DNA of 63,403 nucleotides, from assembly GCA_002497245.1 (NCBI GenBank), contig DANB01000016.1, positions 1-63,403 of the forward strand, in the 5' to 3' direction. This stretch comes from Euryarchaeota archaeon UBA439 (GTDB lineage Archaea; Thermoplasmatota; Poseidoniia; Poseidoniales; Thalassarchaeaceae). Under the pieces are notes generated by a model. It ran no database searches and was not told the DNA's origin. It saw only the letters and a program-made list of their open reading frames with translations. The position numbers and the translations under genes are program-made. Within the stretch, counting starts at the first letter, position 1. The number at the start of each line of letters is the position of its first letter. This document shows, in pieces, positions 3,523 to 60,257 of this stretch.

Positions 3523-3578
3523 TTATTTTCTTAATTTTACCTTTATGATTTATTGAGTCTCTGTACTACCCAGTGATT

Positions 3579-26619: not shown

Positions 26620-27230
26620 CAGAATTACCTTTAATTCCGCCACCTCCTTCTGATTCTCCAGAACCTGGTTTTGTGGTCTTAGGGCGTTTTCAGCCGTTTC
26701 ATAAGGGTCATGCAGCTATGATAATTAATGCTGAAAAATATCGCCTAAAGAATTTCCCAGAATTAAAACTAATTATTGCAGTTGGTTCTTCAAATAGGCC
26801 TCAGACGCTAAAGAATCCTTGGTCCGAATCTGAAAGAATGGAGATGATTTTGTATTGGCTTGATAATGAAGCAAATATTGATGCGAAGATTGTTTCTATT
26901 CCTGATATTGAGGATCCTCCAAATTGGGTCAGCCATGCTGAGAGATATCATGGTAAGTCTGGAGTATTTTTTAGTAGTGATTTAACTTCATCTGAATTAT
27001 ATGAGAGTTCTAAATGGCCGGTCATTTCTATGCCTCTGGTTGAAAGAGAACGATTTGAAGGATGGAGGGTCCGTGAGACTGCTAGAATGCTTTCTACAAT
27101 TAACGATGACAACGCAGTTAAGATGATTTTAGGTCAGTCTGTTCCTGAAAAAATTATTGAGTTCCTGATATCAAATGATTCCCTTAAGAGACTCGCTTTC
27201 TTGGGTGAAGGTGGAGAGCCAGTTGGTTAA
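26616..27230 (+). CDS. nadM: Nicotinamide-nucleotide adenylyltransferase (archaeal NMNAT)
   Basis: VLGRFQPFHKGHAAMI (HxGH) and IAVGSSNRPQTLKNPWSESER, as in the archaeal MJ0541 type. Confidence 0.8.
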   Translation: MTELPLIPPPPSDSPEPGFVVLGRFQPFHKGHAAMIINAEKYRLKNFPELKLIIAVGSSNRPQTLKNPWSESERMEMILYWLDNEANIDAKIVSIPDIEDPPNWVSHAERYHGKSGVFFSSDLTSSELYESSKWPVISMPLVERERFEGWRVRETARMLSTINDDNAVKMILGQSVPEKIIEFLISNDSLKRLAFLGEGGEPVG

Positions 27231-29278
27231 TTCCAACTCAGGTCATCCGGAGAAAATGAGCAATTACCGTTGCAAGTATCTACAATATCTTCTAATTGAA
27301 GATATTTAAATGCCATATCTCTAGCTGTAAATAGGCCCCCAATCGCATTATGAGCAGGATGTGGTTCTTCACCATATTCATTTCCATCAGGTGCGAGAAT
27401 ATATCCTCCATCAAAGAAAACCCCAACAGAGCCGATATGAGTTTCATTCACTATATCGATGCCATAAGGGATGATAGTCGATGAATTGAGAATTGGTATA
27501 TTGGCAGTTCTCATCATTCTTGCAGAAGAAATATTTGAAATTTGTAAATCCCCAATAGAGAATAGGGTCATCAAATCATAAGGTTCAATCTCATCTAGAT
27601 ATCCTTCTTCTCTAAGCGATAGGAAAGTGTCAGATTCAACTGAATCCCATAGAGTCTGCATTATAGAAATGGCGACTGCCCTATCTAGTTGATTTTCATA
27701 TCCCCATTCACTGGCAAATATGAAATGGAAGCGATCATATTGTGTACAGCGTTCTATGATATGAGAAAAGGAAGATCCTCCCGCCCAAAGAACTCCTCTA
27801 TTCAGGTCTGGTGAAAGGCCGATTATCGATGGTCCTCGTAGTCCTCCATTTGAATAACCTGTGTAAACTGGATCAGAAACATCTACTAAACTATTATTAT
27901 TAATGTACAATTCAGGTAATTCTGAACAAATTCCCATAAATGATTTTATCATCACTACCTGATTAATCATTGCTTGTTCAAGTCTTTCTGCTTGATGTTG
28001 GAAATAATTCATATCAAGAACAGCATATTCTATGCTAGTAATGTCGTCACTTGCCCATCCGTAAAAACTAGTTCCTAACATTGCTGCATTATTTTCATTA
28101 GCCCATCCATACAATCCTGAGGTGTCCCCTGTACCCAGGAATCCATGACCCCATATTGTCAAATCAGCAGGCTCATTGACTGCAGTGCCCGGAATTAATA
28201 ACCAGAAAGGAATCTCTCTATTTTCTACGAAAACAGGTGTCCGGTCTGTTTCTGAAGTCCTTCTGATTAAAGTTGGCGGATAAAATGATTCAGTATACTG
28301 TGGAGCAGTATAGGTTCCAGAGATAATCCAATGGCTTGTATTTGTAGTCCCTTCTATAAATCGCTCCTCTACGGTGATGTCGTTACAGCCTATACCGTTT
28401 TCCCCAATCCTTTGCAGAGCATCATTTCTCATCTCAATAATTGGGCCAATTATCGATTCAGTTGATGCAGTATGGAAACTCCATGCGGTTTGTAATTGTT
28501 GGATTTGAATTTCAGTATTTGATTCAATAAATGAGAACAGTTCTTCAAAAGAACCTCTTCTATTTTCGATATCAATTGATGAAGTAATTACTTGATCTCT
28601 TAGTGCAGCAAAACCTTCTGGAGCCGGCACTAATTCTCCAGATTCATCCATTAGTCCCGATATTATCACGACATAAGGTGTGTTATGTTCCAATGCCTTT
28701 ATCGTTCTAATGTGAAGTATAGTTGGTTGATCAATCTCAGATCTAATGTCAAGTTCAACCCAGTGCGGAACTAATTCTCCGGTTAATTTATTCATTAAAA
28801 TTGTAGAGTGTCCATCTTCTAAACTTTTTGAAATACTATATTGTCCTGCTAATTCTGACACATCTGGATCAATGTCAAAAGCGGTCATAATCTGTGTATT
28901 AGGGCTTGCACCATCAATTTGATTGATTATAGGGATATTAATTTGACTAGATGTACCTGATCCAGGTATTGTGTTTGGTGAATAATTTATTCTTTTGCCA
29001 GTAACCGTAGTTTGGTCATTTATTAGAAATGCATCAGAAGGAAAAGGTAGCATACAATGTATTGCATTAGTATTGTCACACCCATCAATATGTGGTATTT
29101 CTAGAATTTCTTCAACTTCTTGATATAAACAGCTTCCATCATCTATTGTGGCATTTTCATTAAAATTTAGTGCATCTGAATCCATACAACCGGGAGTTTC
29201 GAGAACTTCATCATTCACTCCAGTACATCCTGAGAGTATCATAGAGACGCATAATAAAATTACAAGAAACTTATTCAT
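27227..29278 (-). CDS. Secreted lipoprotein, possible alpha/beta-hydrolase
   Basis: Signal peptide plus lipobox-like ILSGC. Cys-knot motif CMDSDALNFNENATIDDGSCLY. GYSNGG (GxSxG). Confidence 0.65.
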   Translation of the reverse strand: MNKFLVILLCVSMILSGCTGVNDEVLETPGCMDSDALNFNENATIDDGSCLYQEVEEILEIPHIDGCDNTNAIHCMLPFPSDAFLINDQTTVTGKRINYSPNTIPGSGTSSQINIPIINQIDGASPNTQIMTAFDIDPDVSELAGQYSISKSLEDGHSTILMNKLTGELVPHWVELDIRSEIDQPTILHIRTIKALEHNTPYVVIISGLMDESGELVPAPEGFAALRDQVITSSIDIENRRGSFEELFSFIESNTEIQIQQLQTAWSFHTASTESIIGPIIEMRNDALQRIGENGIGCNDITVEERFIEGTTNTSHWIISGTYTAPQYTESFYPPTLIRRTSETDRTPVFVENREIPFWLLIPGTAVNEPADLTIWGHGFLGTGDTSGLYGWANENNAAMLGTSFYGWASDDITSIEYAVLDMNYFQHQAERLEQAMINQVVMIKSFMGICSELPELYINNNSLVDVSDPVYTGYSNGGLRGPSIIGLSPDLNRGVLWAGGSSFSHIIERCTQYDRFHFIFASEWGYENQLDRAVAISIMQTLWDSVESDTFLSLREEGYLDEIEPYDLMTLFSIGDLQISNISSARMMRTANIPILNSSTIIPYGIDIVNETHIGSVGVFFDGGYILAPDGNEYGEEPHPAHNAIGGLFTARDMAFKYLQLEDIVDTCNGNCSFSPDDLSWN

Positions 29279-38247: not shown

Positions 38248-38324
38248 TGGTGGGCGATACAGGATTCGAACCCATGTCATCGGCTTAGAAGGCCGATATG
38301 ATATCCAGACTACACCAATCGCCC
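38248..38324 (-). tRNA. tRNA-Arg (anticodon TCT), CCA encoded
   Basis: Reverse complement: GGGCGAT..TCGGC-CTTCTAA-GCCGA..GGGTTCGAATCC..ATCGCCC-A-CCA. 7-bp acceptor stem, 5-bp anticodon stem, T-loop TTCGAAT. Confidence 0.85.
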
Positions 38325-39789: not shown

Positions 39790-39866
39790 GGGCGTGTGGC
39801 GCAGCTTGGAAGCGCGCTTCTTTGGCTAAGAAGAGGCCCCGAGTTCAAATCTCGGCTCGTCCACCA
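39790..39866 (+). tRNA. tRNA-Ala (anticodon GGC), CCA encoded
   Basis: GGGCGTG acceptor stem with a G3:U70 wobble (Ala identity element). D-arm GCGC/GCGC. Anticodon arm CTTCT-TTGGCTA-AGAAG. T-arm CCGAG-TTCAAAT-CTCGG. One U:U mismatch at 6:67, and U at position 37. Confidence 0.85.
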
Positions 39867-44893: not shown

Positions 44894-47227
44894 ATGAGCA
44901 TGAGTGGCAGAAAGTCAAGTAAGACATTTGTGTCATTATCGATTATTTCATTGATTTTTATATCTCTAATTAGTATCTCCTCGGCGCAAATCATAGCTCC
45001 ACAAGGTCCAGGGATTGAATGGGAAAAACCAGAAAGCCATCGGCTGTTTCTAAAAGGTGAGGCCACATCTCCTTATCTCGATAACAATTGGAGCTCTTTG
45101 ACTGGTCAACCTATTGGTTCAATCGACTTCCAGAAAACTGTCGGTTCAACAAACTTGATCGACATTCAATCAGCTCCAATCATGGAAGATTTAGAGTTTA
45201 ATGGCAACATTACAGTTCACATTTTTGCATCTCTAGATGTTGCAAATGATGGATGTAAGTTTACAAATGTCCTTCCCGGTTCTCCTTTGGGTTCAGAAAC
45301 AAGGTTCTCTGTTTCACTCACATTGGGAAATAATCAAATTCTTTTAGATGCTCAAACTAATTCTATAGTAATGGAGGAATCCTTTACCTTGGCTCATGAA
45401 TTTTTAGTTGATGCTAACAATATCAATGTAAGTCTTAAGCAGGGCGATCTAATTGGATTACGAATTGATGTAATACACGATTGTGCACAGACAGGAGTTT
45501 TATGGTGGGATACTTATGATGCGACTACAGGAATAGAATTTAAAGGTGAACTAATTTATCCTGAATTAGATCAGACAGTTGACCCCAATGGGATAATCAG
45601 AGTAGAATTTACACCAAATTCACCTTGGGGAAATGATCTTTATCTTTCTCAAGTTTTAGAGGTTATTGGACCTGTTGAATGGCAAGACATGATTCATGGC
45701 AATGCAGATGAAAATACCAGATTAGATCATTTTGAATCCCCTCATGGAATTAGAGTAGATGAATTTAATCGTACGGTTTTAACTTGGTCCTCACAAAATC
45801 GCCTTTCTTCAGGAAAGTATATGGTCGATAGTTGTTACAAATTATCAGATCAAGACCCTGGAGAAACCTGTGACCTTATCGGAGTTCTTAGGTTTGAAGT
45901 CTTAGAACCAGAACCATCTCTATTAAATGGAACTTGGGCAGCTATTTTGATTCCTCTTAGTATCATTTTTTGGATTGGCATCTCTATGAAAGAGGCACTA
46001 CTACCTTTACCGGCATATGGAGTTATTTTGTTACTAGCATTAACAACTCTGGGCCCAGCAATGAATTTACCAGATATTGATTTCGAAGAACCGAGATTTG
46101 AGGGGGCATCTCCCTCGTTCTCATTATATGAGCATGGCGAGAATCAACAGTTAGTAGAGTTTAGTGATTTATTATCAGATTATGATGCAATAGTTATTGG
46201 ACTATTTACTCCAAGTTCTCCAAATGCTGAGATTCAAAGAGTTGATTTCGAAATAGCTCAGAAGGTAATTGATGATGATGTTGCGTTTCTCCAAATTGCA
46301 ACTGGAGAAGGTGTCAATAGTTTAGATTTAGATAAATTAGTAAATGAGATTAATGGGAGTTGGCCAGTTCTTATTGACAATCCAGATTCATCTGTTGGAA
46401 AATCGTTCCCTAGCAGAGCTTCAGACTCAGTTTTTGTGATTGATTCAGCAGGATTCATATCCTCTTGGAAGCCTGGAACTATGTCTTCACAATCAATAGA
46501 AGATTCAGTAGAATCGTCCTATCTTGGTTCAGGAAATCTACCTTTAGATTTGCTAGGTCTGATTATTGGAACTACTTTTCTTCCTCTTGTGGTCTTAGCG
46601 ATGCCTAGAGGCGGGAAATACGAAGTTCCCGATTCCCCCCTTATACCTGGAGCAGGATTAGCGCTTACATTATATTCTTCGAGTGTAGGTTTTGCTTTGT
46701 GGGCATTACCTGTATCGATCTTGTCAATATTAGGATTAGGTTCGTTTTGGATTTATATTGAACTTATAATAAGTTTGATGCTTATTTATCATGGTCTTTC
46801 TATGTTATTTAGAGGTGGCATTAAAGAAATAGAAATTATTGGAGGACTATTTTATTCTAGATTACCTGAACCGTATCAATTATGGTGGAAAGAAAATAAA
46901 TTCTTAGATGATATGTATTTAGGTCTCTGGGTTGCATGGTTATTATGGCTTAGAGCACCAAATACAATACCGCAAGCCATCGGCGCAGTTGCAAGGTCTG
47001 GATTAATTGGAATATTTATCTGTATGATATTTTTCTTAGGTTACATGTTTATGGCTGGTTTAGTAGTAGTAATTTTCAGAACTAGTTTAGCTATAGTTGG
47101 AGATTTCACACGAATTTTGGGTTCACTAAGTGTCGGACTAAGGCCACGTGCATGGGGATTAACTTGTGCCATCCTTGGAGTATGGGTTTTATTCAGCATA
47201 GTTGCTGGGCCTTTGATGATAATGTAA
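44894..47227 (+). CDS. Large surface/membrane protein: signal peptide, ectodomain, TM segments, Cys-less thioredoxin-like module, polytopic C-terminus
   Basis: N-terminal signal (SLISISSAQ) and multiple hydrophobic helices from residue ~345 onward. Confidence 0.65.
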   Translation: MSMSGRKSSKTFVSLSIISLIFISLISISSAQIIAPQGPGIEWEKPESHRLFLKGEATSPYLDNNWSSLTGQPIGSIDFQKTVGSTNLIDIQSAPIMEDLEFNGNITVHIFASLDVANDGCKFTNVLPGSPLGSETRFSVSLTLGNNQILLDAQTNSIVMEESFTLAHEFLVDANNINVSLKQGDLIGLRIDVIHDCAQTGVLWWDTYDATTGIEFKGELIYPELDQTVDPNGIIRVEFTPNSPWGNDLYLSQVLEVIGPVEWQDMIHGNADENTRLDHFESPHGIRVDEFNRTVLTWSSQNRLSSGKYMVDSCYKLSDQDPGETCDLIGVLRFEVLEPEPSLLNGTWAAILIPLSIIFWIGISMKEALLPLPAYGVILLLALTTLGPAMNLPDIDFEEPRFEGASPSFSLYEHGENQQLVEFSDLLSDYDAIVIGLFTPSSPNAEIQRVDFEIAQKVIDDDVAFLQIATGEGVNSLDLDKLVNEINGSWPVLIDNPDSSVGKSFPSRASDSVFVIDSAGFISSWKPGTMSSQSIEDSVESSYLGSGNLPLDLLGLIIGTTFLPLVVLAMPRGGKYEVPDSPLIPGAGLALTLYSSSVGFALWALPVSILSILGLGSFWIYIELIISLMLIYHGLSMLFRGGIKEIEIIGGLFYSRLPEPYQLWWKENKFLDDMYLGLWVAWLLWLRAPNTIPQAIGAVARSGLIGIFICMIFFLGYMFMAGLVVVIFRTSLAIVGDFTRILGSLSVGLRPRAWGLTCAILGVWVLFSIVAGPLMIM

Positions 47228-50217: not shown

Positions 50218-53200
50218 ATGGACTTGTTAATCATGCGTATGCTAACTCCAATCTTTGTGTTGTCAATTTTGATTATGATGAGTTTATCTCCTTTATTTGT
50301 TAATTCAGAATTACAGGAAAATGAAAATAGGGACGATATAGGACCTAAATCTTTGATTGATTTTGAGATATCATCCATAGAAATTGGTAATCAAACAAGA
50401 GATGCTAAGGAATGGACTCAGCCAGATAACTCGATAGTCGAATATATCATGAGGGATGAAACAATTCAAATTAATGTAACTTATACTCAGGCAGGATCTT
50501 CCGGTCAACCAGCATCTGCTGAAGGTTATCTTCAGATATGGCACCCAGTTGGCTTTATGATAGCAGAATATAACGTAAGTATGCTTCTTTCTGGTTTCCA
50601 GTCTTTGAAAGCAACTTTTGTTTGGACTCCGAGTTCTGCTCACAGTGCATTAGATGAGAATGGTTACCTAGTAGGTGGAATCATCCTAAGAGGTATAGTT
50701 GATGGTGGTCTGGCTGACGACACGGAATCAAATAATGAATTAGATCGTTATGTGCCTGTCGCAATGTGGAACGATCCTATGGAAAATGGTTTCTGTGGCG
50801 ACGTAGATGGAGACAATGTGATTGATTGCACCAATCAACTTCAAGCAAATGTGCCAACTTGGGTAGGTGCTGGATACGATTCTTCGGGGCAATTATCATC
50901 TGACCCAGATAGCTTTGGCCATTGGAGAATGGAAAACGCTTCTAGCGAAGAAGGGGAGAATCATTGGCGTGTATCTCGACCAGGTGCAAATTATGCCAGC
51001 AATCGACATGATAGACTTTGGTGGGGATGGTTCACTCCGTTTGACAATTGTAACGAGCCAGGGCACGGACTAGGGCTAGGTACTCTAGACTCTGCTGTCA
51101 GTTCGAATTATGGTAATAATTTCTGTAAGATTCGACTCAAAGGTTTTGATTTCTTAACCATTCAATTGGTGACAAATGCATGGGGGGAAATGGCAGCAGG
51201 TGATGAAATGAGAATTGAAGCGGATTCAGGAGGTGTTAAAGAATTCTACAATTTTTCTTCTCAACCTCTTTCAACTACTGGTGAATGGACTCAGTTAGTT
51301 TGGAATATGACCGAAGTCCATCCATCAGCAGAGTATACTTTGGCCTTCAAATTTGACTCAAATAGTTCCTTTTCAAGTCAAGGTATACAAATTGATTCAT
51401 TCATAATTTTCGCTATTCAAAAGGTTCCTCAATATACTCTGGACTTTGATTGTGATGATCCACTTCCAAACTCTTACTTAGTAGTTCCATCCGATCCGCA
51501 TCCTCCCTCTTTGTATTGCAGTATCAAGAATAATGGCTATGTAGATATTACTTTGAGACTCTATACAGAAGTTACAAATCGTTCATGGATGTATGATTTT
51601 CCATTAAGAATTGATTCTAATAACCCTGTAGATCATGATAATTATGTAATTACCAAGGTAATCCCTGCTCTAAGTTATATGGATACTTGGTTTAATCTTA
51701 CAATTCCTGATGCTTCGGGTGTACAGGACTTATATTGGGATGTTTGGGTAAATGATGGAATCACTAATATTACCAAAGAGTATGTTAGTTTACCAGTTTC
51801 AGTTATGCCTGCTTATTCAAGCAAATTAAGGCAGGTCACTTTACAGAATCCAGCTGCAACTTTGGAACCTGGGGCAAGTGGTATTATCCCAATGTCTTTC
51901 AAAAATACAGGTAATCAAATAGCAACTTGGAGTTTTGATGCAGCATGGCCTAATATTGACTGGGTCGACAATGCTGACATTAAATGGTATTACAACGGTT
52001 CCGAGGTTTCGACACTAGAACTAGCTTTAACCGATGATGTATTGATTGATGCTGTAATTACGGCACCTCCTCAAGTGTCTCCTGGGACATATTCTGTAAC
52101 ATTACTTGCATCTGGTGTTTCTCCAGCTCAATATCTTGCTGAATGGCAAGTGAATATTGTTGTTCCAATTTACTCTGATTTATTAATAGAACCAGAGGTT
52201 TTCAATTTAGTTGCTCCCGCAGATAATTCTTTGAGACTAATAGAAATTAGGTTGGTGAATAATGGGAATTCCCCCGAATCTTTCGATTTAAGTATCCAGG
52301 CCGATTGGAAACTAGGCTTGGAAATGAATACAGAACAGACTTTTGAAATTGATCCATTCGGTGGAGACACTACAGTAACTATGCTTCTTCCCATGCCTTA
52401 CGGTATTGTGGCTGAAACTTATTCAATTATCTTAACTGCTTCGAGTAAATTAAATTCTGATTACCAAATGTCATCCCAGATGTTATTAACAGTTCCAGAA
52501 ACAAATTTAGTTGAAGTTGAAGATTTAGATATGTTAGACGAGGTTTTCCGTGGGGGAGACGACCCTAGAACTGTTAATTGGCGTATCTGGAATAGAGGAA
52601 ATGTCGCAGATTCTTTCGAAATATCTTTTGACCATTTTTCAGATGTTTCCGCATCTGCTGTAGGGCTTAGTGATGGTAAGACTCCATATATTCTTCCTGG
52701 AGAATCACATAATCTCACTGTAAGATATTCTTTTAGTTCATTGACCTTTGGGGATAGGACAATTTCAATGACAGCTACCAGCGTCCTTTCTCAATCTTCT
52801 GAATCTCCGGTTTCGGGAACAGGAAACGCTGATTTCCAAGTTGGTGCTCAAGGTTGGATAACTCTAACTCCTCCGGGATTAATTGAAATTAGAGAAGGAG
52901 GAAATGATATAGAAATTACTTTCAATGTAAAGAATGAACATCCAACAGATGCTCAGTTGTTAAGAGCAGATATTGATAGAAATTCCAATATTTTCTACAA
53001 TATAGTAGATGCAAGAGTAGATACGGGTGATCAAAACTTCGTCTTAGAAGCTCAATCAATGAGAGAAATCACTGTCTTTTTGACCGCTACTGACGAAAAT
53101 TTAAGGAATTTGAATAATAATTCTGAGGTATTCATGCTACCTCTCAATGTAGACGGAGATATTGACAAAGTTTCTATGTCTGCTAGTATTCAAATGTTCA

Positions 53201-53664
53201 AGATTGATCCAGTAGATACTGGAACTAATGCAGGAGAATATGCTGGTTTGGCAGGCAATATTATTTTCATATTAATTGGTTTAGTGATTTTAGGTGCTGT
53301 TTTAGTAGTAACTTTCAGAATAATGCGTAGTGCTTCCTCTCCTTTAGAAGAACTTTCAACTTTTGATGATTACGAATACACTCAAGGAAATAATTTCAAT
53401 CCAACTACTTTACCAAATGCTCCAGATTTGCCCTCGGAGGATAAAGTTGCAAATTCAATGTACGGTGGTTCTGAAGATATATTCAAACAACCTCCACCGC
53501 CTTTACCACCGGCTGAAACTTCTGTAGAAGAATTACAGCCTGAAGAAGAAAACTTACCGCCAGGAGTGCCCGAGATACCAGATTCAGGACTGCCTGAAGG
53601 ATGGACAATGGAACAATGGGTTCATTATGGTCAAGCATGGATTGATCAGCAGAATGAATCTTAA
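50218..53664 (+). CDS. Giant (1148 aa) surface protein: signal peptide, repeated beta-sandwich-like modules, single C-terminal TM anchor, Pro-rich cytoplasmic tail
   Basis: Signal LSPLFVNSE. Recurrent N-x-G-N/F-x-L modules (IKNNGYVDITL, FKNTGNQIATWSF, LVNNGNSPESFDL, IWNRGNVADSFEI, NVKNEHPTDAQL), CARDB-like. TM helix IIFILIGLVILGAVLVVTF. Confidence 0.75.
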   Translation: MDLLIMRMLTPIFVLSILIMMSLSPLFVNSELQENENRDDIGPKSLIDFEISSIEIGNQTRDAKEWTQPDNSIVEYIMRDETIQINVTYTQAGSSGQPASAEGYLQIWHPVGFMIAEYNVSMLLSGFQSLKATFVWTPSSAHSALDENGYLVGGIILRGIVDGGLADDTESNNELDRYVPVAMWNDPMENGFCGDVDGDNVIDCTNQLQANVPTWVGAGYDSSGQLSSDPDSFGHWRMENASSEEGENHWRVSRPGANYASNRHDRLWWGWFTPFDNCNEPGHGLGLGTLDSAVSSNYGNNFCKIRLKGFDFLTIQLVTNAWGEMAAGDEMRIEADSGGVKEFYNFSSQPLSTTGEWTQLVWNMTEVHPSAEYTLAFKFDSNSSFSSQGIQIDSFIIFAIQKVPQYTLDFDCDDPLPNSYLVVPSDPHPPSLYCSIKNNGYVDITLRLYTEVTNRSWMYDFPLRIDSNNPVDHDNYVITKVIPALSYMDTWFNLTIPDASGVQDLYWDVWVNDGITNITKEYVSLPVSVMPAYSSKLRQVTLQNPAATLEPGASGIIPMSFKNTGNQIATWSFDAAWPNIDWVDNADIKWYYNGSEVSTLELALTDDVLIDAVITAPPQVSPGTYSVTLLASGVSPAQYLAEWQVNIVVPIYSDLLIEPEVFNLVAPADNSLRLIEIRLVNNGNSPESFDLSIQADWKLGLEMNTEQTFEIDPFGGDTTVTMLLPMPYGIVAETYSIILTASSKLNSDYQMSSQMLLTVPETNLVEVEDLDMLDEVFRGGDDPRTVNWRIWNRGNVADSFEISFDHFSDVSASAVGLSDGKTPYILPGESHNLTVRYSFSSLTFGDRTISMTATSVLSQSSESPVSGTGNADFQVGAQGWITLTPPGLIEIREGGNDIEITFNVKNEHPTDAQLLRADIDRNSNIFYNIVDARVDTGDQNFVLEAQSMREITVFLTATDENLRNLNNNSEVFMLPLNVDGDIDKVSMSASIQMFKIDPVDTGTNAGEYAGLAGNIIFILIGLVILGAVLVVTFRIMRSASSPLEELSTFDDYEYTQGNNFNPTTLPNAPDLPSEDKVANSMYGGSEDIFKQPPPPLPPAETSVEELQPEEENLPPGVPEIPDSGLPEGWTMEQWVHYGQAWIDQQNES

Positions 53665-53753: not shown

Positions 53754-55364
53754 ATGTACAATGGACAACAACCAATATTTATCCTAAAAGAAGGCACTGA
53801 AAGAACCAGTGGGCGTTCTGCTCAGAGCAATAACATTGCTGCAGCTAAGGCAGTAGCAGATTCCGTTCGTTCTACACTAGGTCCTAAAGGAATGGACAAA
53901 ATGCTGGTTGATGGAATGGGTGACGTAGTAATCACAAACGATGGTGCTACAATCTTAAAGCAAATGGATATCACAAATCCGGCTGCAAAAATGATAATCG
54001 AAGTTGCTAAAACTCAGGAGCAGCATTGTTTCGACGGAACTACAAGTGCTGTTGTCATTGCCGGGGAATTATTGAAAAGAAGTGAAGATTTAATTGATCA
54101 GAATGTACACCCTACTGTAATTTGTGAGGGATTCCGTTTAGCCGCAGAGAAAGCTGCAGAGTTAATTGAGAGCCATTCTCTTGAAATAAATGAGCAAATG
54201 TTGACTGAAGTTGCTAAGACCGCATTGACTGGTAAGAGTGCCGGAGCAGTGAAAGAATTCTTAGCGGATATCTGCGTTAGAGCAGTTCTATCCGTTGCTC
54301 AGGAAGTTGATGGTGACACAGTTGTTGATCTTGATGATGTCAAAGTTGAAAAGAAACAAGGCGGTTCTATTGGCAGTAGTACTTTGGTTGATGGAATTAT
54401 TTTGGATAAAGAAAGAGTTCACTCGGGAATGCCTAAGGTAGTTAATGATGCTAAGATAGCACTAATAAATTCTGCAATAGAGGTTAAGAAAACAGAGGTT
54501 GATGCTAAGATCCAGATCACAGATCCAAATATGTTGTCCCAGTTTTTAGATGAAGAAGAGTCATATCTAAAATCTTTAGTTGAGACCATTAAATCATCTG
54601 GTGCAACTGTAGTAATATGTCAAAAGGGTATTGATGACTTAGCACAACATTACATGTCAAAATCAGGTTTAATGGCAATCAGAAGAGCAAAGAAAAGTGA
54701 TATGGAAGCACTTTCTAAAGCAACAGGTGGAAAAATAATTACTAATATTGATGATTTATCCTCTGATGATTTAGGTCATGCATCTAAAGTTGATGAGCGT
54801 AAAATAGGTGAATCTGATATGATTTTTATTACTGGATGTAAAGATGCCAAGAGCGTTTCGGTACTTCTAAGAGGTGGTACTGAACATGTTATTGATGAAA
54901 TTAATCGTGCATTTGATGATGCTATTGGCGTAGTTGCCGTAGCCTATGAAGACGGGTCAGTTTTGACAGGTGGAGGCTCTGTATTAGCGGCAATTAGTAG
55001 GTCATTAAGGTCATATGCCGAAGGAATTGGAGGCAGAGAACAGATGGCGATTGAAGCCTTTTCAGGAGCTTTAGAAGTAATTCCAAGGACATTAGCAGAA
55101 AATGCAGGGCTAGATCCTGTGAACACAATAATTGATCTAAGAAAAGCTCACTCTGAAGGGAAATCAGAGTTTGGAGTAAATGTTTACGAAGGTGGTGTGG
55201 CTAATATGGCTAATAGTAAGGTATTCGAGCCTAGCCGAGTAGTCGACCAAGCGATCCAATCTGCTACCGAGACTGCAGTGATGATTCTTAGAATTGATGA
55301 TGTTATTTCCAGTAGAGCCTCCAGTCCAATGGAAGGTGGAGAATTCGATGGAATGGGGATGTAA
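53754..55364 (+). CDS. thsA: Thermosome subunit (group II chaperonin)
   Basis: [24 protein letters not shown], and VAGGG-type motifs (LTGGGSVL). C-terminal GGEFDGMGM. Confidence 0.95.
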
Positions 55365-55462: not shown

Positions 55463-57640
55463 ATGTCAGCTGTTCGTCCCCTCTTGGTGTTGTTTGGTTC
55501 TCAATCTGGTAACGCCGAGGATGTTGCTTCTAAAGTTGGGAAAGCCGCATCTAAATATGGACTTGAGGCAACAGTAAAAGGAATGGATGAAATCAAAATT
55601 AGCGATATGGCGGGTCAAAAAAGAATAATGATTTGTTGTAGCACTTGGGGAGAGGGTGAGCAACCAGATAACGCAGAGGATCTATGGACTTCAGCCAATG
55701 CTGATGACTCTCCTTCGATGAGTGGCGTGAATTTCTCTGTTCTAGCATTGGGCGATTCTTCATATGATTTATTTTGCGAATCTGGTAAAGAATGGGACTC
55801 CTGGTTAGAGTCTAAAGGAGGAGTTAGAATAAATCAACGTGTAGATTGTGATGTTGATTATGAAGCTCCTGCTAAAGAGTGGATGGATGAAACTCTTGCG
55901 AGGATGGGTGCAGTAGATGATTCAGGAGTTTTCCAAGAAAGCTTAGTTGAAGAAGTGAAAAATAATGTTTCTGGCAGCGCATCAAATAAGGCGGAACCAG
56001 AGTCGAAAAGTTCAGAATCTTCAATTGAGATTTCTACAGATGGCGATCGTTCAATGACGATTCTCTTCGGTTCTCAATCTGGAAACGCGGAAGGTCTAGC
56101 GGCGAAGTTTGCCAAACAAGCCACCAATTATGGTTTAGATGCTGAAGTTGCAGATATGGATGGCTTTGATTTATCTTCATTATCTTCTAAGAAGAGAGTT
56201 TTGATCATCTGTTCTACATGGGGCGAAGGCGAGCAACCAGATAATGCAGAGGAATTATGGAAAAAAGCAGTCTCTGCATCTTCTGGTTTACTAAATGGAG
56301 TTTATTTCTCAGTCTTGGCACTTGGAGACACATCGTATGAGTTGTTTTGTGAATCTGGTAAAGAATGGGATAAAAGGTTTGAAGAATTAGGTGCTATCAG
56401 ATTGGTCGATAGAGTAGATTGTGATGTAGACTATGATAAAGTATCCCAATTATGGGCGGAAGAAGCTCTTGCTTCAATGGCCGCAGTCGATGGCGAGGGG
56501 ATCTTCCATGAAGAAATGGTCCAAGCAATAAAAGATTCAATTACATCTGATTCAGCAGGCGCATCCGGAGAAGATGGTTTTACAGTTCCAAATCTCAAGT
56601 CCGATTCTTTAATGGCTGAGATTAGTATTTTCAGATATGACCCTTCTTCTTCGACAACAGGTAAAGATACGTGGATTTGTTCATTACCTGGACACATGTC
56701 TATCCTAGATGTTCTCCGAACTCTGAAAAATACTCAAGATGGCTCTTTAACCTTTAGAGATGGCGCGATAGATGATCCAACTACTGCTATTACAATAAAT
56801 GGCAGACATGTTTTACCTGGTAATCTGAGACTAGACCTAGCAGCTCCAATTCGTGATGGTGGAATTAGTATTAAGATAGAACCACTCAATGGTTTTGAAG
56901 TAATTAGAGATTTAGTAGTTGATTATTGGGCTTTTGAGACAAAACGAGAGGCGAGTAAGCCTTGGATGGTATCTGTAACTAGAAAAGGATTGAGCACCCC
57001 TCAAGGGGCTATTGGCTCTATGGAACCTCTTATCGCCTCTGAACTCCATTCAATTACTGATATTCACAGTTATCCAATTCTTCATTCTTGTTCCGATGCT
57101 ACATCTCATTCTGATGAATATTTGGGCCCCTCAATTATTTCTCATGCCTGGGCGAGAAGAAATGACCCTCGTCTATCCCCTATTAAGAAGAAGGAAATTG
57201 AGGATCTACTTGATTCCCCTAATGGCATTAAGGCTGAAACAGATTTGTCTTCAATAAGAAGACAAGGTAAAGGTTCGATAATCCACGATTCTCTTTTAAA
57301 TTGTAAAACCTCATCTTTAGCAAGAACAGGATATAATGGTCGTCATGGAAAGCATGTCTGGTGGTATGCAGTCACTGTCAAAAGTAGTGGTAAAGTAAAT
57401 GATACCGTATTGTATCGTCAGGTTTTAGGGCCAGTTGGATTGATTGGAAATTTATTTTCTGGAGTCACTGCTAGAATGGTACTTGGTTTCACTAGAACTG
57501 GCGGTAACATGATTAACGATATGTTAGCATTAATAGCTCCTCCAGCAGGTCTCGGAAAGATGCCTCGTCAGTTTAATGCTTCAGTAAAAAATCATCATGA
57601 GGTGGTAGCAATATTCAATGAGATGGATGGTCGATTTTAA
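55463..57640 (+). CDS. Fusion protein: flavodoxin-like x2 + cysteine-depleted SdhB/FrdB-like module
   Basis: Two CysJ-type flavodoxin units (LFGSQSGNAE..CSTWGEGEQPDNAE..FSVLALGD.SY.LFCESGKEWD..RVDCDVDY). Then ISIFRYDP..SILDVLRTLK..SLTFRDGAIDDPTTAITINGRHVLPG..IKIEPLNGFEVIRDLVVDY, which aligns to E. coli SdhB. Confidence 0.85.
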   Translation: MSAVRPLLVLFGSQSGNAEDVASKVGKAASKYGLEATVKGMDEIKISDMAGQKRIMICCSTWGEGEQPDNAEDLWTSANADDSPSMSGVNFSVLALGDSSYDLFCESGKEWDSWLESKGGVRINQRVDCDVDYEAPAKEWMDETLARMGAVDDSGVFQESLVEEVKNNVSGSASNKAEPESKSSESSIEISTDGDRSMTILFGSQSGNAEGLAAKFAKQATNYGLDAEVADMDGFDLSSLSSKKRVLIICSTWGEGEQPDNAEELWKKAVSASSGLLNGVYFSVLALGDTSYELFCESGKEWDKRFEELGAIRLVDRVDCDVDYDKVSQLWAEEALASMAAVDGEGIFHEEMVQAIKDSITSDSAGASGEDGFTVPNLKSDSLMAEISIFRYDPSSSTTGKDTWICSLPGHMSILDVLRTLKNTQDGSLTFRDGAIDDPTTAITINGRHVLPGNLRLDLAAPIRDGGISIKIEPLNGFEVIRDLVVDYWAFETKREASKPWMVSVTRKGLSTPQGAIGSMEPLIASELHSITDIHSYPILHSCSDATSHSDEYLGPSIISHAWARRNDPRLSPIKKKEIEDLLDSPNGIKAETDLSSIRRQGKGSIIHDSLLNCKTSSLARTGYNGRHGKHVWWYAVTVKSSGKVNDTVLYRQVLGPVGLIGNLFSGVTARMVLGFTRTGGNMINDMLALIAPPAGLGKMPRQFNASVKNHHEVVAIFNEMDGRF
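55478..56498 (+). repeat. Intragenic tandem duplication (period about 573 nt) encoding the two flavodoxin units
   Basis: Nucleotide-level similarity is visible, e.g. ggttctcaatctggtaacgc (55497) vs ggttctcaatctggaaacgc (56069), and gagcaaccagataacgcagagga vs gagcaaccagataatgcagagga. Confidence 0.8.
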
Positions 57641-58500
57641 TGGCGTTAAAATATGCGTATCATCCAGGTAATGTGGCTCACTCCGGCTCCCCTGAAGTTT
57701 CAGACTCTATGATTCCTTTGGCTAAATCATTGGGTATCAAACTTACAAATCTCGATGGAGCAACAAGTTGTGGCGCCGGAATAATTAGACAAGCAAACAG
57801 AAAGTTACAATTAGCATTAAATGCCCGAATTTTTGCACAGGCTGAATCACTTGGACTGGAAATAATAACACCATGCGCATCAACTGCGGGCAATCTTTCT
57901 GAAGATTTGTCAGAATTGCAATCAGACCCTATACTATTAGCAGAAATTAACGATGTTCTGAATAAGACATGTGGTATGGAGTTTAAAGGAGAAACTTCAG
58001 TTAATCATCTATTGCACGTCATTGTGGATGAGATAGGGCTAGATAAGGTCAAATCTATGGTATTGAACCCTATTGGTTTCAGAGTTGCCTCATATTATGG
58101 TCCTAATATGCAACAAGATGGATTTTGTGGAGGCGATGATGTCTATGATCCAAATTATATGGAGCAGTTGATGAGAGTTTTAGGGGGGGAGTCCGTTGAA
58201 TGGGATTCACGAATGCAAAGCGTAGGTGCACCTAGCCTTTTATCTGAGGAACCAACAGTTCTCAAATTGTCTGCCTCAGTTCTTAACGATGCCAAATCAG
58301 AAGGAGCACAATTAATAGTTAGTGCCTGTAATTTATCACATTCAGTAATGGATATATATCAAGGTAAAGCATCGCAGAGAACTGGTCTCAGAACAAATAT
58401 TCCGGTAGTTCATCTTTGTGAAATACTGACTTTTGCATTAGGTCATCATAATACCCGATTTGCCCAATTAAAGACAAGAGTAATGGTAATTGGAGATTAA
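57640..58500 (+). CDS. HdrB / type-E SdhE (CCG-domain) like protein with degenerate CCG motifs
   Basis: Two-fold repeat layout: YHPGN..TSCGAG..TPCASTAGN and YYGPN..FCGGDD..SACNLSHS, in place of GC..CCG..CxxC. TAATG overlap with the upstream gene. Confidence 0.7.
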   Translation: MALKYAYHPGNVAHSGSPEVSDSMIPLAKSLGIKLTNLDGATSCGAGIIRQANRKLQLALNARIFAQAESLGLEIITPCASTAGNLSEDLSELQSDPILLAEINDVLNKTCGMEFKGETSVNHLLHVIVDEIGLDKVKSMVLNPIGFRVASYYGPNMQQDGFCGGDDVYDPNYMEQLMRVLGGESVEWDSRMQSVGAPSLLSEEPTVLKLSASVLNDAKSEGAQLIVSACNLSHSVMDIYQGKASQRTGLRTNIPVVHLCEILTFALGHHNTRFAQLKTRVMVIGD

Positions 58501-58505
58501 TTACT

Positions 58506-60257
58506 TCATTTGCTGCCATTAAAATCTTCCAACCCGGTTTGGCCCATAGGTCTAAATCCAGAAGGTTCTATTTTCCCTACATCCTCGTTTTCATTGGTTT
58601 CAATTTCATTCAAATCTCTTTCTTTCATTTTCGGACGATAACTTTCTCTCTCATGTTTGACAAAGTCTGATGCTGAAATTATTTCCTCTCCGTTTTTTAT
58701 ACTGAAATTACCAATATTGGATAAATCTTGATGAGTTTTTCTTGGTAATTTCCTCCTCACTCTTTGAACAGTTCTATACATATTCTCTTCTTTTTTCTGA
58801 GCAGCTTTCCTCATATTTTCATCTCTAGTACCTTCCGCAATAAGGACCATGACTTCTCCTTCTCTGTGCCTCCCCGTTCTCCCTCTTCTCTGTATTGTCC
58901 TAATCTCACTCGCAACTGGCTCATAGAATATGACTAGATCGGCACTAGGGATGTCCAGTCCTTCTTCAGCGACAGAGGTTGCTACGAGAACATTATATTC
59001 ACCTTCTCTGAATTTATCCAGGACTTCTATTTGTTCTCTTGGTTTAAGTCCTTTTTTGCCTGATCTTTCTGACTGTCCTATCATTTGTATTGATTTCACT
59101 CCCCTCAAGTCAACCAGTGCTTTTTCTAAAGATTCCACAGTGTTCCTAAATGATGCAAAAACGATAATTTTGCTATCAGGGTCTCTTCTCAAACGATGTC
59201 TCACTAATCTTCTTACGGTGCCAACTTTATTGTGTATTTCTTCCATATCAATTAACGCTTTTCTTAATTCTATAATTCTCCGATCTTTATGAAAATTCTG
59301 AATTGATTTACTGGGATTGTTTTTCAATTCTGCCGACGTTTCTAGAAATTCTCTTGCTGCTGTTATTCCTTGTGTCAGAAGATGATTAATTAGATGATTC
59401 AGAGTCATAGCAGTTGCTATGTTTGATACTGAAGAATATCCTCTGGCATCTCCTAATTTAATAGAATGTTGTGCCCTATTCATAGCTTCTTTCAGCCCTC
59501 CAAATGAGGGCGGCCCTGTTCTAACATATTTTCCAAGTCTTCTTTCCCTATTTACGATACTGTTAATCCATAATTCTAATGGAGTTACTAATGTTTTTAT
59601 TTTTTCAGGAACATTGACTAGTATTTCTTGTATTTCTAAACCAGAAAGATAATCTCTCAACATTGGTTCATCTGCCTTTCTAATATGAATTCTTTTTATT
59701 TTTAATCTACTGCAAATTTCGTTGACAATCATTGAATTAGATCCTGGACTAGCAGTAGCTCCTAAAATAAGCCCATTTTTTGATGCTAAATTAAACATTT
59801 CTGCTGATTGAACCATTGCGTGTTTGCCGGTGGAGTGATGCGCCTCATCCAAAATTAATAATGAACATTCTTCTAATGATAAAATATCATTTAATACATC
59901 ATTACGTACAACTTGGGGTGTTGCTACAATTATCTTCGAAGTTTTCCATAATTTCTCACGCTTTTTAGGAAGATTACTACCAGTAATTGAGATCGCCTCA
60001 ACATTCTTGATAATCTTCTTCAGATCTTTTAGATGTTGATCAACTAGTGCACTAGTTGGCGCGATAAATAGTACCCATCCCTCGTTTCTATTCAATATTT
60101 CAGCAATCAACATCCAAGAAACTGCCGTTTTTCCAGCCGCTGTTGGTAGCACAAGTAACATGGATCCAGCAAGTGCTTCATCTACTGCTTCTAATTGATA
60201 AGCTCGACCTTCAACAGAGCCTTCAACTAACTCAGTATGTTGAACCACGTGTCTCAT
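58506..60257 (-). CDS. hef: Hef/FANCM-type SF2 helicase without a recognisable ERCC4 nuclease domain
   Basis: YQLEAV..LPTAAGKT, LILDEAHH, VATSVAEEGLDIPSADLVIFYEP, and QRRGRTGR. The C-terminal ~110 aa is a charged tail. Confidence 0.85.
   Translation of the reverse strand: MRHVVQHTELVEGSVEGRAYQLEAVDEALAGSMLLVLPTAAGKTAVSWMLIAEILNRNEGWVLFIAPTSALVDQHLKDLKKIIKNVEAISITGSNLPKKREKLWKTSKIIVATPQVVRNDVLNDILSLEECSLLILDEAHHSTGKHAMVQSAEMFNLASKNGLILGATASPGSNSMIVNEICSRLKIKRIHIRKADEPMLRDYLSGLEIQEILVNVPEKIKTLVTPLELWINSIVNRERRLGKYVRTGPPSFGGLKEAMNRAQHSIKLGDARGYSSVSNIATAMTLNHLINHLLTQGITAAREFLETSAELKNNPSKSIQNFHKDRRIIELRKALIDMEEIHNKVGTVRRLVRHRLRRDPDSKIIVFASFRNTVESLEKALVDLRGVKSIQMIGQSERSGKKGLKPREQIEVLDKFREGEYNVLVATSVAEEGLDIPSADLVIFYEPVASEIRTIQRRGRTGRHREGEVMVLIAEGTRDENMRKAAQKKEENMYRTVQRVRRKLPRKTHQDLSNIGNFSIKNGEEIISASDFVKHERESYRPKMKERDLNEIETNENEDVGKIEPSGFRPMGQTGLEDFNGSK

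What the first reader, a model, noticed from the sequence alone, without database searches (positions are those of the whole stretch)
55463..58500. Fe-S-ligand-free SdhB/FrdB-like module fused to two flavodoxins, coupled to a CCG-eroded HdrB/SdhE-like protein
Seen in sequence: residues ~10-150 and ~200-345 of the 725-aa ORF are two near-identical CysJ-type FMN flavodoxin units. Residues ~387-725 align by eye with the succinate dehydrogenase/fumarate reductase iron-sulfur subunit. ISIFRYDP matches FSIYRYNP. SILDVLRTLKNTQDGSLTFR matches MLLDALIQLKEKDPSLSFR. IKIEPLNGFEVIRDLVVDY matches IVIRPLPGLPVIRDLVVDM. The 2Fe-2S ligand stretch (RRSCREGVCGSDGLNMNG..LAC) reads RDGAIDDPTTAITING..LPG here. No CxxCxxCxxxCP motif remains. 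Only 3 Cys occur in this ~340-aa part, none in a CxxC context. The next gene overlaps by 1 nt (TAATG) and has the two-repeat HdrB/type-E SdhE layout. Each Cys pair in it is reduced to one or none: GC to GN/PN, CCG to SCG/FCG, CxxC to CAST/CNLS. Inference: either an electron-transfer module in which FMN domains replace an Fe-S relay (iron-sparing in an oligotrophic ocean lineage), or a redox-dead scaffold or sensor derived from complex II. I know of no characterised protein with this architecture. No SdhA-like flavoprotein lies in the window.
Basis: partly seen in the sequence, partly recalled or inferred. Interest (0 to 1): 0.85.

Follow-up and report, generated by a model that had tools for sequence, protein, structure and literature searches.

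The report
Cluster-free SdhB with tethered flavodoxins
A two-gene unit found in essentially all Marine Group II archaea descends from the iron-sulfur and anchor subunits of a succinate dehydrogenase, but has lost every iron-sulfur ligand in one protein, has rebuilt the metal site in the other, and has small electron-carrier domains (flavodoxin or ferredoxin) fused on; its function is unknown and databases mislabel it.

Summary
ORF 55463-57640 (725 aa) is Fld-Fld-[SdhB-like]. ORF 57640-58500 (286 aa, 1-nt overlap) has the HdrB/SdhE fold. The two flavodoxins are 53% identical, not near-identical.

This is not decay. dN/dS is 0.03-0.08. The pair occurs in 311 species-level genomes, and all 80 listed are Poseidoniales/MGII. 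It always sits between the thermosome gene and the Hef helicase/ribosomal operon.

The SdhB-like module aligns end to end (hhalign E 3e-40) with the long SdhB class, whose genes lie in sdhA-sdhB-CCG operons. All cluster ligands are substituted in every lineage. Its C-terminal tail is its most conserved part.

The N-terminal carriers vary by lineage: Fd, Fd-Fd, Fd-Fld, Fld and Fld-Fld.

The partner shows a graded series of ligand Cys: 5+5 in HdrB/SdhE, 5+1 in deep branches, and a fixed pattern in crown MGII (C44, C79, C163, C230 plus gained H8 and H14). This is remodelling, not erosion.

Best reading: a scaffolded CCG reductase fed by tethered carriers. Substrate and metal content are unknown. 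Published MGII reconstructions label the pair 'cysJ' and 'sdhC'.

The parts
55463..57640 (+). Gene 1 (725 aa): Fld1 - linker - Fld2 - linker - cluster-free long-type SdhB body with conserved tail
   Evidence: ORF. Pfam/NCBIfam. Family found in 311 species genomes. dN/dS 0.03-0.08 in folded domains.
55481..55912 (+). Distal flavodoxin unit (Fld1 type, residues 7-150). In other lineages a [4Fe-4S]-type ferredoxin occupies this position, or nothing does.
   Evidence: Flavodoxin_1 and cysJ FMN-domain hits. FMN phosphate loop FGSQSGN intact. Positional Fd/Fld1 alternation.
55913..56053 (+). Acidic Ser/Gly/Ala-rich linker 1 (residues 151-197)
   Evidence: Composition: 11 D+E, 18 S/T/G/A of 47. Relaxed dN/dS of 0.05-0.4.
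56054..56497 (+). Proximal flavodoxin unit (Fld2 type, residues 198-345). Present in nearly all crown-group family members.
56498..56614 (+). Linker 2 (residues 346-384)
56615..56935 (+). SdhB N-terminal (2Fe-2S-type) domain without ligands (residues 385-491). The former ligand columns are now a gap, D, T and G.
   Evidence: Pfam Fer2_3 E 1.4e-10. Alignments to E. coli SdhB/FrdB and the long SdhB class.
56936..57337 (+). SdhB C-terminal ferredoxin-like core without any CxxCxxCxxxCP motif (residues 492-625). The YLGP motif is retained.
57338..57637 (+). Conserved C-terminal tail (residues 626-725: GRHGKHVWWY...GVTARM..GFTRTGG...GKMP...HHEVVAIFNE). It is homologous to the C-terminal extension of long SdhBs and is the inferred arm that holds the CCG subunit.
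   Evidence: Most conserved region: mean column identity 0.73, 20 of 100 columns invariant. hhalign covers it. The long-SdhB profile reaches into the HdrC C-terminal extension. No Pfam or PDB hit when searched alone.
57640..58500 (+). Gene 2 (286 aa): HdrB/SdhE-fold CCG protein, translationally coupled to gene 1 by a 1-nt overlap
   Evidence: Always adjacent to gene 1 in the loci examined.
57652..57882 (+). First CCG repeat, remodelled: H8, N11 (was Cys), H14, S43 (was Cys), C44, C79. T82 (was Cys) lies just after it at 57883-57885.
   Evidence: Pfam CCG 38.4 bits. Column analysis. Coordinates.
58081..58347 (+). Second CCG repeat, degenerate: P155, S194, V195, S233 replace Cys. C230 is retained. 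C163 (58126-58128) is newly gained.

Best explanation
This is a core, vertically inherited two-gene operon of Poseidoniales (MGII) and their deeper relatives. It descends from the sdhB-sdhE half of a type-E succinate:quinone oxidoreductase operon (sdhA - long sdhB - CCG subunit).

Shown:
- The sdhA neighbour is absent.
- The SdhB body has lost all three clusters in every lineage, but is kept under strong purifying selection. Its C-terminal tail is the most conserved part.
- Ferredoxin and/or flavodoxin domains are fused to the N-terminus on flexible acidic linkers, and their cofactor motifs are intact.
- The CCG partner has gone from two noncubane-cluster motifs (HdrB/SdhE) to one (deep branches), and then to a fixed C44/C79/C163/C230 + H8/H14 site (crown MGII).

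Inferred mechanism:
- The SdhB body no longer conducts electrons. It is a scaffold whose tail clamps the CCG subunit, much as the HdrC extension holds HdrB.
- The tethered carriers swing between an external low-potential donor and the pocket of the CCG subunit. The donor could be a 2-oxoacid:ferredoxin oxidoreductase or an NAD(P)H:flavodoxin reductase.
- The carriers deliver single electrons to a minimal metal or thiol site in that pocket, which reduces a small acceptor (a disulfide or a quinone).
- The alternation of Fd and Fld1 at the distal position is a hard-wired version of the classical ferredoxin/flavodoxin exchange. Loss of the O2-labile, iron-rich noncubane clusters fits life in oxic, iron-poor surface water.
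For: Homology and origin:
- hhalign of 14 diverse C-modules against 12 long Cys-bearing SdhBs gives probability 100%, E 3e-40, 310 columns end to end.
- Those long SdhBs lie in sdhA-sdhB-CCG operons whose CCG protein has all 10 Cys.
- The HdrB fold of gene 2 has TM 0.85.

Functionality:
- dN/dS is 0.03-0.08 in all folded domains.
- The family is in 311 species genomes, with constant synteny even at 38-45% identity.
- The two genes overlap or abut in 83 of 84 loci.

Carriers:
- Architectures are Fld-Fld 40, Fd-Fld 21, Fld 17, Fd 1, Fd-Fd 1.
- All FMN loops are intact. Fd domains keep CxxCxxC...CP.

Scaffold and arm:
- The tail is the most conserved region.
- The long-SdhB profile extends into the HdrC C-terminal extension.

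Site remodelling:
- The site pattern is invariant in 80 of 81 crown species.
- There is a graded series, including a Cys44->Asp swap and gain of C163, H8 and H14.
- EtfD shows that substitutions of CCG ligands yield different clusters, and that ligands are shared between the two half-sites (PMC13083937).
Against: - No structural model of the SdhB-like module or of the complex was obtained. AF2 gave pLDDT 35. Tail-partner contact and carrier docking are therefore inferences.
- No donor, acceptor or expression data were found.
- In crown MGII both HdrB catalytic bridging Cys positions are replaced (T82, S233), so Hdr-type disulfide chemistry cannot be assumed.
- The loops carrying H14 and C163 are low-confidence in the model.
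- I could not establish what the true SDH of MGII looks like, or whether it uses this CCG protein.
Confidence: 0.5

Rival explanations
1. Redox-inert pseudoenzyme. The SdhB-like/CCG pair is a purely structural or regulatory scaffold (sensor, assembly or docking factor). The fused carriers would then be the organism's main Fd/Fld, merely anchored to it, with no electron flow into the CCG subunit.
For: - No cluster ligand is left in the SdhB body in any lineage.
- Both Hdr catalytic bridging Cys positions are replaced in crown MGII.
- The pair sits among housekeeping genes (thermosome, ribosomal operon), not redox genes.
Against: - Invariant C44, C79, C163 and C230, the gained H8 and H14, and a Cys->Asp swap look like ligand behaviour.
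- Deep branches keep a complete 5-Cys noncubane motif next to Fd domains.
- The partner has the lowest dN/dS, 0.03-0.04.
Confidence: 0.2
2. It is, or is part of, the real complex II of MGII. The module would bind an SdhA encoded elsewhere. FMN domains would stand in for the Fe-S wire, or the 286-aa protein would double as the SdhE-type anchor of a conventional SdhAB.
For: - The pair descends from type-E sdhB-sdhE.
- The MGII core table of Tully 2019 lists sdhA and a single 'sdhC' cluster but no sdhD. JGI gives the 286-aa protein that same KEGG name.
Against: - The same table lists a separate sdhB cluster (92% of MGIIa, 90% of MGIIb genomes), distinct from the 'cysJ' clusters (100% and 99%) that most likely correspond to gene 1.
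- sdhA is never adjacent in any locus examined.
- The 2Fe-2S site that normally faces the SdhA flavin is gone.
- The carriers are on flexible linkers rather than placed along the relay.
- Neither protein has a membrane-spanning segment.
Confidence: 0.12
3. Database reading: gene 1 is CysJ (the sulfite reductase flavoprotein) and gene 2 is a succinate dehydrogenase cytochrome b subunit or a heterodisulfide reductase B.
For: These are the automatic names in JGI, RAST and KEGG, and they were carried into MGII papers. The FMN domains do resemble the CysJ FMN domain (TIGR01931, E 6e-85).
Against: - The match covers only profile positions 28-204 of 597. There is no FAD/NADPH domain. The score is 286 against a cut-off of 668.
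- No cysI or sir is in the MGII core table.
- Gene 2 has no haem-binding membrane helices. It lacks 7 of the 10 Hdr/SdhE Cys, and all equivalog cut-offs are missed.
Confidence: 0.02
4. Decaying pseudogenes or assembly artefacts.
For: Loss of nearly all cofactor ligands. One close relative (P0001) is an Fld1/Fld2 chimera.
Against: - Intact reading frames across hundreds of species.
- dN/dS of 0.03-0.08.
- The same substitutions recur in 80 of 81 crown species.
Confidence: 0.01

Closest known systems
Type-E succinate:quinone oxidoreductase, subunits SdhB (long form, PRK12577/PRK12576-like) and SdhE (CCG protein), as in Sulfolobus/Acidianus SdhABEF and the Campylobacterota MFR SdhABE
   Same: - End-to-end homology of the SdhB body, including the C-terminal extension.
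- The same gene order, sdhB then the CCG gene, tightly coupled.
- The same two-repeat fold of the CCG protein.
   Different: - No sdhA neighbour.
- All 11-12 SdhB cluster ligands are gone.
- 7 of the 10 SdhE Cys are gone, with new His and Cys residues.
- N-terminal Fd/Fld domains are fused on.
- A ~20-residue insertion (GFTRTGG...APPAG) lies in the tail.
Heterodisulfide reductase HdrBC (for example PDB 5ODC, 8RVV)
   Same: Gene 2 superposes on HdrB (TM 0.85). The long-SdhB/HdrC ferredoxin core and the start of the extension are related.
   Different: - No noncubane-cluster motifs remain in crown MGII.
- The catalytic bridging Cys (HdrB C81, C234) are T82 and S233 here.
- There is no HdrA.
- The organism is an aerobic heterotroph.
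Thiol:fumarate reductase TfrB (an SdhB-like + HdrB-like fusion)
   Same: The same succession of modules. NF004898 hits both proteins, in their order within TfrB.
   Different: The modules are on two polypeptides. The Cys are lost. The scores are far below the cut-off. There is no TfrA or SdhA.
Mycobacterial EtfD (PDB 9OJN)
   Same: It is a CCG-domain protein in an aerobe whose ligand substitutions remodel the Hdr-type clusters (linear [3Fe-4S], a His ligand).
   Different: EtfD keeps full Fe-S wiring, has transmembrane helices and a haem, and takes electrons from ETF. Here the wiring is absent and the carriers are fused.
FMN domains of CysJ, cytochrome P450 reductase and MioC
   Same: Sequence family and FMN-binding loops. 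They act as mobile one-electron shuttles on linkers.
   Different: There is no FAD/NADPH domain. The domains are in tandem or paired with a ferredoxin, and are attached to an SdhB-derived body.

Membership tests
SdhB/FrdB iron-sulfur subunit | Homology over both the 2Fe-2S-type N-domain and the ferredoxin-like C-domain | tested here: met
   Profile against PDB, E 3e-9. hhalign E 3e-40. Pfam Fer2_3 scores 41.6 bits against a cut-off of 27.
SdhB/FrdB iron-sulfur subunit | Four ligands of the [2Fe-2S] cluster (Cx4Cx2C/D...C) | tested here: not met
   The columns are a gap, D, T and G here. None is a conserved Cys in 117 relatives.
SdhB/FrdB iron-sulfur subunit | CxxCxxCxxxCP and CxxxxxCxxxCP motifs for the [4Fe-4S] and [3Fe-4S] clusters | tested here: not met
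   The columns are I/Y/L/S and E/L/I/G here, and there is no CxxC anywhere in the module.
SdhB/FrdB iron-sulfur subunit | Curated family score (TIGR00384 cut-off 88; PRK05950 cut-off 228) | tested here: not met
   53.5 and 59.3 bits.
SdhB/FrdB iron-sulfur subunit | Operon partner SdhA/FrdA | tested here: not met
   Absent from the window and from all flanks examined. Whether an SdhA encoded elsewhere binds it could not be tested.
HdrB / type-E SdhE (CCG-domain proteins) | Two-repeat HdrB fold | tested here: met
   Foldseek TM 0.83-0.85, E 1e-17. phmmer E 2e-34.
HdrB / type-E SdhE (CCG-domain proteins) | Two CXnCCGXmCXXC motifs (10 Cys) that bind Fe-S clusters (PMC2754724; PMC13083937) | tested here: not met
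   3 of 10 remain (C44, C79, C230). The pattern is invariant in 80 of 81 crown species.
HdrB / type-E SdhE (CCG-domain proteins) | Curated equivalog scores (TIGR03288 cut-off 345; NF042965 cut-off 500) | tested here: not met
   133 and 118.5 bits. Pfam CCG passes for repeat 1 only.
CysJ (sulfite reductase flavoprotein) | FMN domain plus FAD/NADPH (FNR-like) domain | tested here: not met
   Only profile positions 28-204 of 597 match. The score is 286 bits against a cut-off of 668.
Flavodoxin-like FMN domain | Flavodoxin_1 profile, and the phosphate-binding and isoalloxazine loops | tested here: met
   211 bits against a cut-off of 25, in two stretches. FGSQSGN and STWGEGEQPDNAE are present in both units.
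Flavodoxin-like FMN domain | Actual FMN binding and redox activity | not testable with these tools
   Needs purified protein.
TfrB (thiol:fumarate reductase B) | Full-length match to the fused SdhB-like + HdrB-like protein, with its Cys motifs | tested here: not met
   NF004898 scores 29.9 and 11.5 bits against a cut-off of 385.

The most novel reading that the evidence does not exclude
The module is the missing link between low-potential carriers and the respiratory chain or thiol pool of MGII: a ferredoxin/flavodoxin-dependent quinone or disulfide reductase. In it, an entire Fe-S wire (three SdhB clusters plus two noncubane clusters, about 17 Fe) has been replaced by tethered flavodoxins and a minimal Cys/His site. 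That would be a genetically hard-wired, near iron-free redesign of a complex-II-derived enzyme in one of the most abundant archaeal groups of the surface ocean.
Probability: 0.2. Interest if true: 0.9.

Novelty: new variant of a known kind. Interest (0 to 1): 0.7.

Why it matters
**1. Fe-S protein evolution.** It documents, step by step across living lineages, how an Fe-S electron-transfer module can lose its clusters and stay under strong selection. The tethered carriers and a remodelled CCG site make it a natural experiment in Fe-S protein evolution. It may also reflect iron and oxygen adaptation.

**2. MGII metabolic models.** It is a core gene pair of Poseidoniales, a dominant group of surface-ocean archaea, and its function is unknown. 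Current reconstructions carry it as 'cysJ' and 'sdhC'.
- In Tully 2019 the 'assimilatory sulfite reduction' core trait appears to rest on the cysJ label alone.
- The 'canonical complex II' call may partly rest on the sdhC label.
- Both inferences need re-examination.

**3. A tractable target.** It is small and soluble, which suits biochemistry on the cofactor plasticity of CCG domains.

Tried and rejected
- **AF2 of the SdhB-like module.** With a 12-sequence alignment it failed (pLDDT 34.8), so no fold search was made on it.
- **The conserved tail searched alone.** It gave no Pfam hit and no PDB hit.
- **Finding a genuine Cys-bearing SdhB of MGII.** Three routes all failed:
  - Cluster look-ups of the best Cys-bearing profile hits carried no MGII names.
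  - A homology search with P0282, from a marine MAG with a similar GC content, showed it is an orphan. Its nearest named relatives are Nitrospinae, Chloroflexi and Firmicutes.
  - Literature searches found nothing.
- **P0280.** This 1287-aa repeat protein with 11 matched stretches has no Cys and no family motifs. I treated it as spurious.
- **Apparent degenerate Fld units.** A motif count suggested 12 of them. They proved to be a trivial Q->E variant, FGSESGN.
- **First architecture count.** The count was wrong because of alternative start codons. It was redone on stop-to-stop frames.
- **Readings considered and rejected.** The CysJ reading fails for lack of an FAD/NADPH domain. The pseudogene reading fails on dN/dS. 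Treating 'FCG' as the remnant of the second CCG fails on the alignment.
- **Literature on function or expression.** Searches for MGII flavodoxin, for transcription of this pair, or for a described Fld-SdhB fusion found nothing.


Full report
**1. What is at the coordinates**

Two ORFs on the + strand, 55463..57640 (725 aa) and 57640..58500 (286 aa), share one base (TAATG).

The large protein:
- Pfam finds two Flavodoxin_1 stretches (E 8e-63) and Fer2_3, the N-terminal domain of SdhB, at residues 387-491 (E 1.4e-10).
- NCBIfam SdhB models cover residues 384-571 (best E 3e-16), far below their cut-offs.

The small protein:
- It matches Pfam CCG, HdrB (TIGR03288, E 1.3e-38) and the MFR SdhE model (E 3.9e-34), again below the equivalog cut-offs.
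- Against solved structures it matches HdrB at E 2e-34.
- Its AF2 model (pLDDT 80.5) superposes on HdrB chains with TM 0.83-0.85, E about 1e-17. Weaker matches are to 3KWL, LutA and EtfD.

**2. The cysteine claims**

The C-terminal ~340 aa of the large protein holds three Cys (406, 543, 614), and none is in a ligand column. The 2Fe-2S columns and both ferredoxin-type motifs of SdhB/FrdB are substituted.

In the small protein, seven of the ten HdrB ligand Cys are replaced: N11, S43, T82, P155, S194, V195 and S233. C44, C79 and C230 remain.

- The two flavodoxin units are only 53% (protein) and 59% (DNA) identical.
- The second CCG motif corresponds to S194-V195-G196, not to F162-C163-G164. Cys163 is a new residue.

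No SdhA is in the window. Ten large ORFs, including eight of the twelve of 500 aa or more, gave no FAD_binding_2 hit. Of the other four, 55463..57640 was scanned, 53754..55364 (thermosome) and 58506..60257 (helicase) have orthologues typed, and the orthologue of 50218..53664 has no Pfam hit.

**3. Not decay, but a conserved family**

- Both proteins have hundreds of relatives in marine metagenomes labelled Poseidoniales, Thalassarchaeaceae or MGII.
- A scan of one genome per GTDB species found the family in 311 genomes. All 80 listed are Poseidoniales/MGII.
- The gene order is constant: thermosome, gene 1, gene 2, Hef-type helicase (opposite strand), then the rpl3 ribosomal operon. It holds even for relatives at 38-47% identity.
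- Gene 2 overlaps or abuts gene 1 in 83 of 84 loci.
- Pairwise dN/dS against close relatives (L005-L007, dS 0.26-1.1) is as follows:
  - SdhB-like module: 0.05-0.075
  - Partner: 0.03-0.04
  - Each flavodoxin: 0.03-0.06
  - Linkers: higher
- None of the SdhB ligand columns is a conserved Cys in 117 relatives.
- The thirteen-column site pattern of the partner is identical in 80 of 81 crown-group species.

**4. Origin**

An exhaustive profile search found only 21 clusters (at 50% identity) with E <= 1e-30. Then comes a gap, followed by ordinary SdhBs, the best of which are about 310-320 aa long.
- Those belong to the PRK12577/PRK12576 'long SdhB' class.
- A profile-profile comparison of 14 diverse C-modules with 12 long SdhBs gives probability 100%, E 3e-40, over 310 columns. 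It runs end to end and includes the conserved C-terminal tail.
- Two such long SdhBs lie in sdhA-sdhB-CCG operons, and the CCG protein there has all ten Cys.

The MGII pair is therefore the sdhB-sdhE half of a type-E operon that lost sdhA.

The tail (residues 626-725) is the most conserved part of the module: mean column identity is 0.73, and 20 of 100 columns are invariant down to 38% overall identity.
- No solved SdhB contains it.
- The long-SdhB profile aligns with HdrC beyond the ferredoxin core, into its C-terminal extension.
- From my own recollection of the HdrABC structure papers (not checked here), that extension packs against HdrB.
- That the tail holds the CCG subunit is therefore an inference, not a demonstration.

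**5. Variable carriers**

The N-terminus differs by lineage:

| Architecture | Loci (of 84) | Example |
|---|---|---|
| Fld-Fld | 40 | this window |
| Fd-Fld | 21 | P0242 |
| Fld only | 17 | P0068 |
| Fd only | 1 | P0252 |
| Fd-Fd | 1 | P0254 |

- The carrier next to the SdhB body is always the 'Fld2' type.
- The distal position holds either a single-cluster ferredoxin (CxxCxxC...CP, PF13370) or an 'Fld1'-type flavodoxin.
- All flavodoxin units keep the FMN phosphate loop.
- The linkers are acidic and rich in Ser, Gly and Ala.
- The SdhB body is cluster-free even where only ferredoxins are fused. Loss of the relay is therefore not a consequence of acquiring flavodoxin.

**6. Graded remodelling of the CCG partner**

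Columns use window numbering: 8, 11, 14, 43, 44, 79, 82 | 155, 163, 194, 195, 230, 233.

| Lineage | Site 1 | Site 2 |
|---|---|---|
| HdrB | F C N C C C C | C I C C C C |
| SdhE (L086) | F C K C C C C | C L C C C C |
| L003 (Fd) | F C K C C C C | A I S V C S |
| L004 (Fd-Fd) | F C Q C C C C | A N S V C S |
| L091 (Fd-Fld) | F C K C C C C | S N S V C S |
| L090 (Fd-Fld) | Y C Q C C C C | A C S V C S |
| L087 (Fld-Fld) | F N R S C C S | P C S V C S |
| L088 (Fd-Fld); L089 (Fld, partial: site 1 only) | Y N R S D C S | P C S V C S |
| Crown MGII, including this window | H N H S C C T | P C S V C S |

- C79 and C230 are universal.
- C163 is present in every lineage that lost motif 1, and also in L090, where motif 1 is still intact.
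- C44 alternates with Asp.
- H8 and H14, which flank the lost Cys11, are gained in the crown group.

These are the habits of metal ligands rather than of drift.

The EtfD structure paper gives a precedent:
- A CC->CT change converts a noncubane [4Fe-4S] into a linear [3Fe-4S].
- A His in one CxxC segment helps ligate the neighbouring cluster.
- The second Cys of each CxxC (HdrB C81, C234) is the catalytic bridging ligand (PMC13083937). Those are T82 and S233 here.

I could not obtain model coordinates, and the loops with H14 and C163 are low-confidence. Whether the four Cys and two His converge therefore remains untested.

**7. Mechanism**

Shown:
- descent from sdhB-sdhE
- loss of all SdhB ligands
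- strong selection
- obligatory gene pairing
- intact carrier motifs
- positional Fd/Fld alternation
- the ordered remodelling of the CCG site

Inferred:
- The SdhB body is a scaffold whose tail clamps the CCG subunit.
- The tethered carriers shuttle single electrons from an external donor to a minimal metal or thiol site in the CCG pocket.
- That site reduces a small acceptor (a disulfide or a quinone).

I give this 0.5. The rivals are:
- a redox-inert scaffold that merely anchors the cell's carriers (0.2)
- a role in the true complex II with an SdhA encoded elsewhere (0.12)
- the database readings (0.02)
- decay (0.01)

Neither protein has a membrane-spanning segment.

**8. Relation to the literature**

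- Pereira et al. [quoted passage not shown]
- The core-function table of Tully 2019 lists the following (PMC6336850):
  - cysJ: 100% of MGIIa and 99% of MGIIb genomes
  - sdhA: 98% and 98%
  - one sdhB cluster: 92% and 90%
  - one 'sdhC' cluster: 96% and 92%
  - no sdhD, cysI or sir
- The text of that paper counts assimilatory sulfite reduction and a canonical complex II among the core traits.
- The cysJ entry very probably is gene 1, and the sdhC entry probably is gene 2. This is an inference from matching names and prevalence.
- The separate sdhB cluster suggests that a true SdhB exists elsewhere. I could not retrieve it.
- No paper describing the architecture or its function was found.

**9. 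Verdict**

This is a real, conserved, uncharacterised derivative of the type-E SdhB/SdhE pair, so I rate it a new variant of a known kind. Interest is 0.7: it is a striking case of cofactor loss with retained function in a globally abundant lineage, it has direct consequences for annotation, and the function itself remains to be shown.

Noticed in passing
relative P0001 (534 aa), compared with window 55463-56497: P0001 has a single flavodoxin that is a chimera. Its first ~100 residues match Fld1 (87-93% identity) and its last ~50 match Fld2 (87-100%). The crossover falls on a 20-nt stretch that is identical in the two repeats (GAATCTGGTAAAGAATGGGA, encoding ESGKEWD). It is either a natural recombinational deletion or an assembly collapse.
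   Followed up: partly
literature: Tully 2019 (PMC6336850) Supplementary Data 10; Pereira 2019 (PMC6741140): The MGII core trait 'assimilatory sulfite reduction' appears to rest on a cysJ KO alone, since no cysI or sir is in the core table. The 'sdhC cytochrome b' entry probably corresponds to the 286-aa CCG protein. Both are likely mislabels of this gene pair.
   Followed up: partly
window 50218-53664 (+), and its orthologues upstream of the thermosome gene in L001, L003, L004, L087 and L090: A ~1100-1150-aa protein with an N-terminal hydrophobic segment, a C-terminal transmembrane-like segment and a Pro/Glu-rich tail. It has no Pfam hit. It is syntenic across all lineages examined and is probably a lineage-specific surface protein.
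   Followed up: no
L003 (contig ctg495766, 3.0 Mb, 68.7% GC), L090 (59.6% GC), L004 (53.3% GC): Deep-branching relatives that share the thermosome/Hef/ribosomal-operon synteny come from much higher-GC genomes than MGII (38-48%). One sits on a 3.0 Mb contig. Their taxonomy was not determined. They carry the presumed ancestral state: Fd carriers plus one intact CCG motif.
   Followed up: partly
window 3573-5324 and 5321-7492 (+): An aconitase X (AcnX plus swivel domain) gene overlaps the start of an archaeosine-type tRNA-guanine transglycosylase gene (TGT + PUA).
   Followed up: no
window 27227-29278 (-), 44894-47227 (+), 12198-13406 (+): Three large ORFs (683, 777 and 402 aa) have no Pfam match at E <= 0.001.
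   Followed up: no
window 38248-38324 (-) and 39790-39866 (+): tRNA-Arg(TCT) and tRNA-Ala(GGC) genes.
   Followed up: no
L086 (GCA_964459835.1, 222 kb contig), gene at 6001-7146: An orphan long SdhB (P0282, 381 aa) has a ~60-residue Lys-rich N-terminal extension. It lies in a DoxX-sdhA-sdhB-CCG operon. Its nearest relatives are only 46-48% identical. P0307 has a similar Lys/Ala-rich extension.
   Followed up: no
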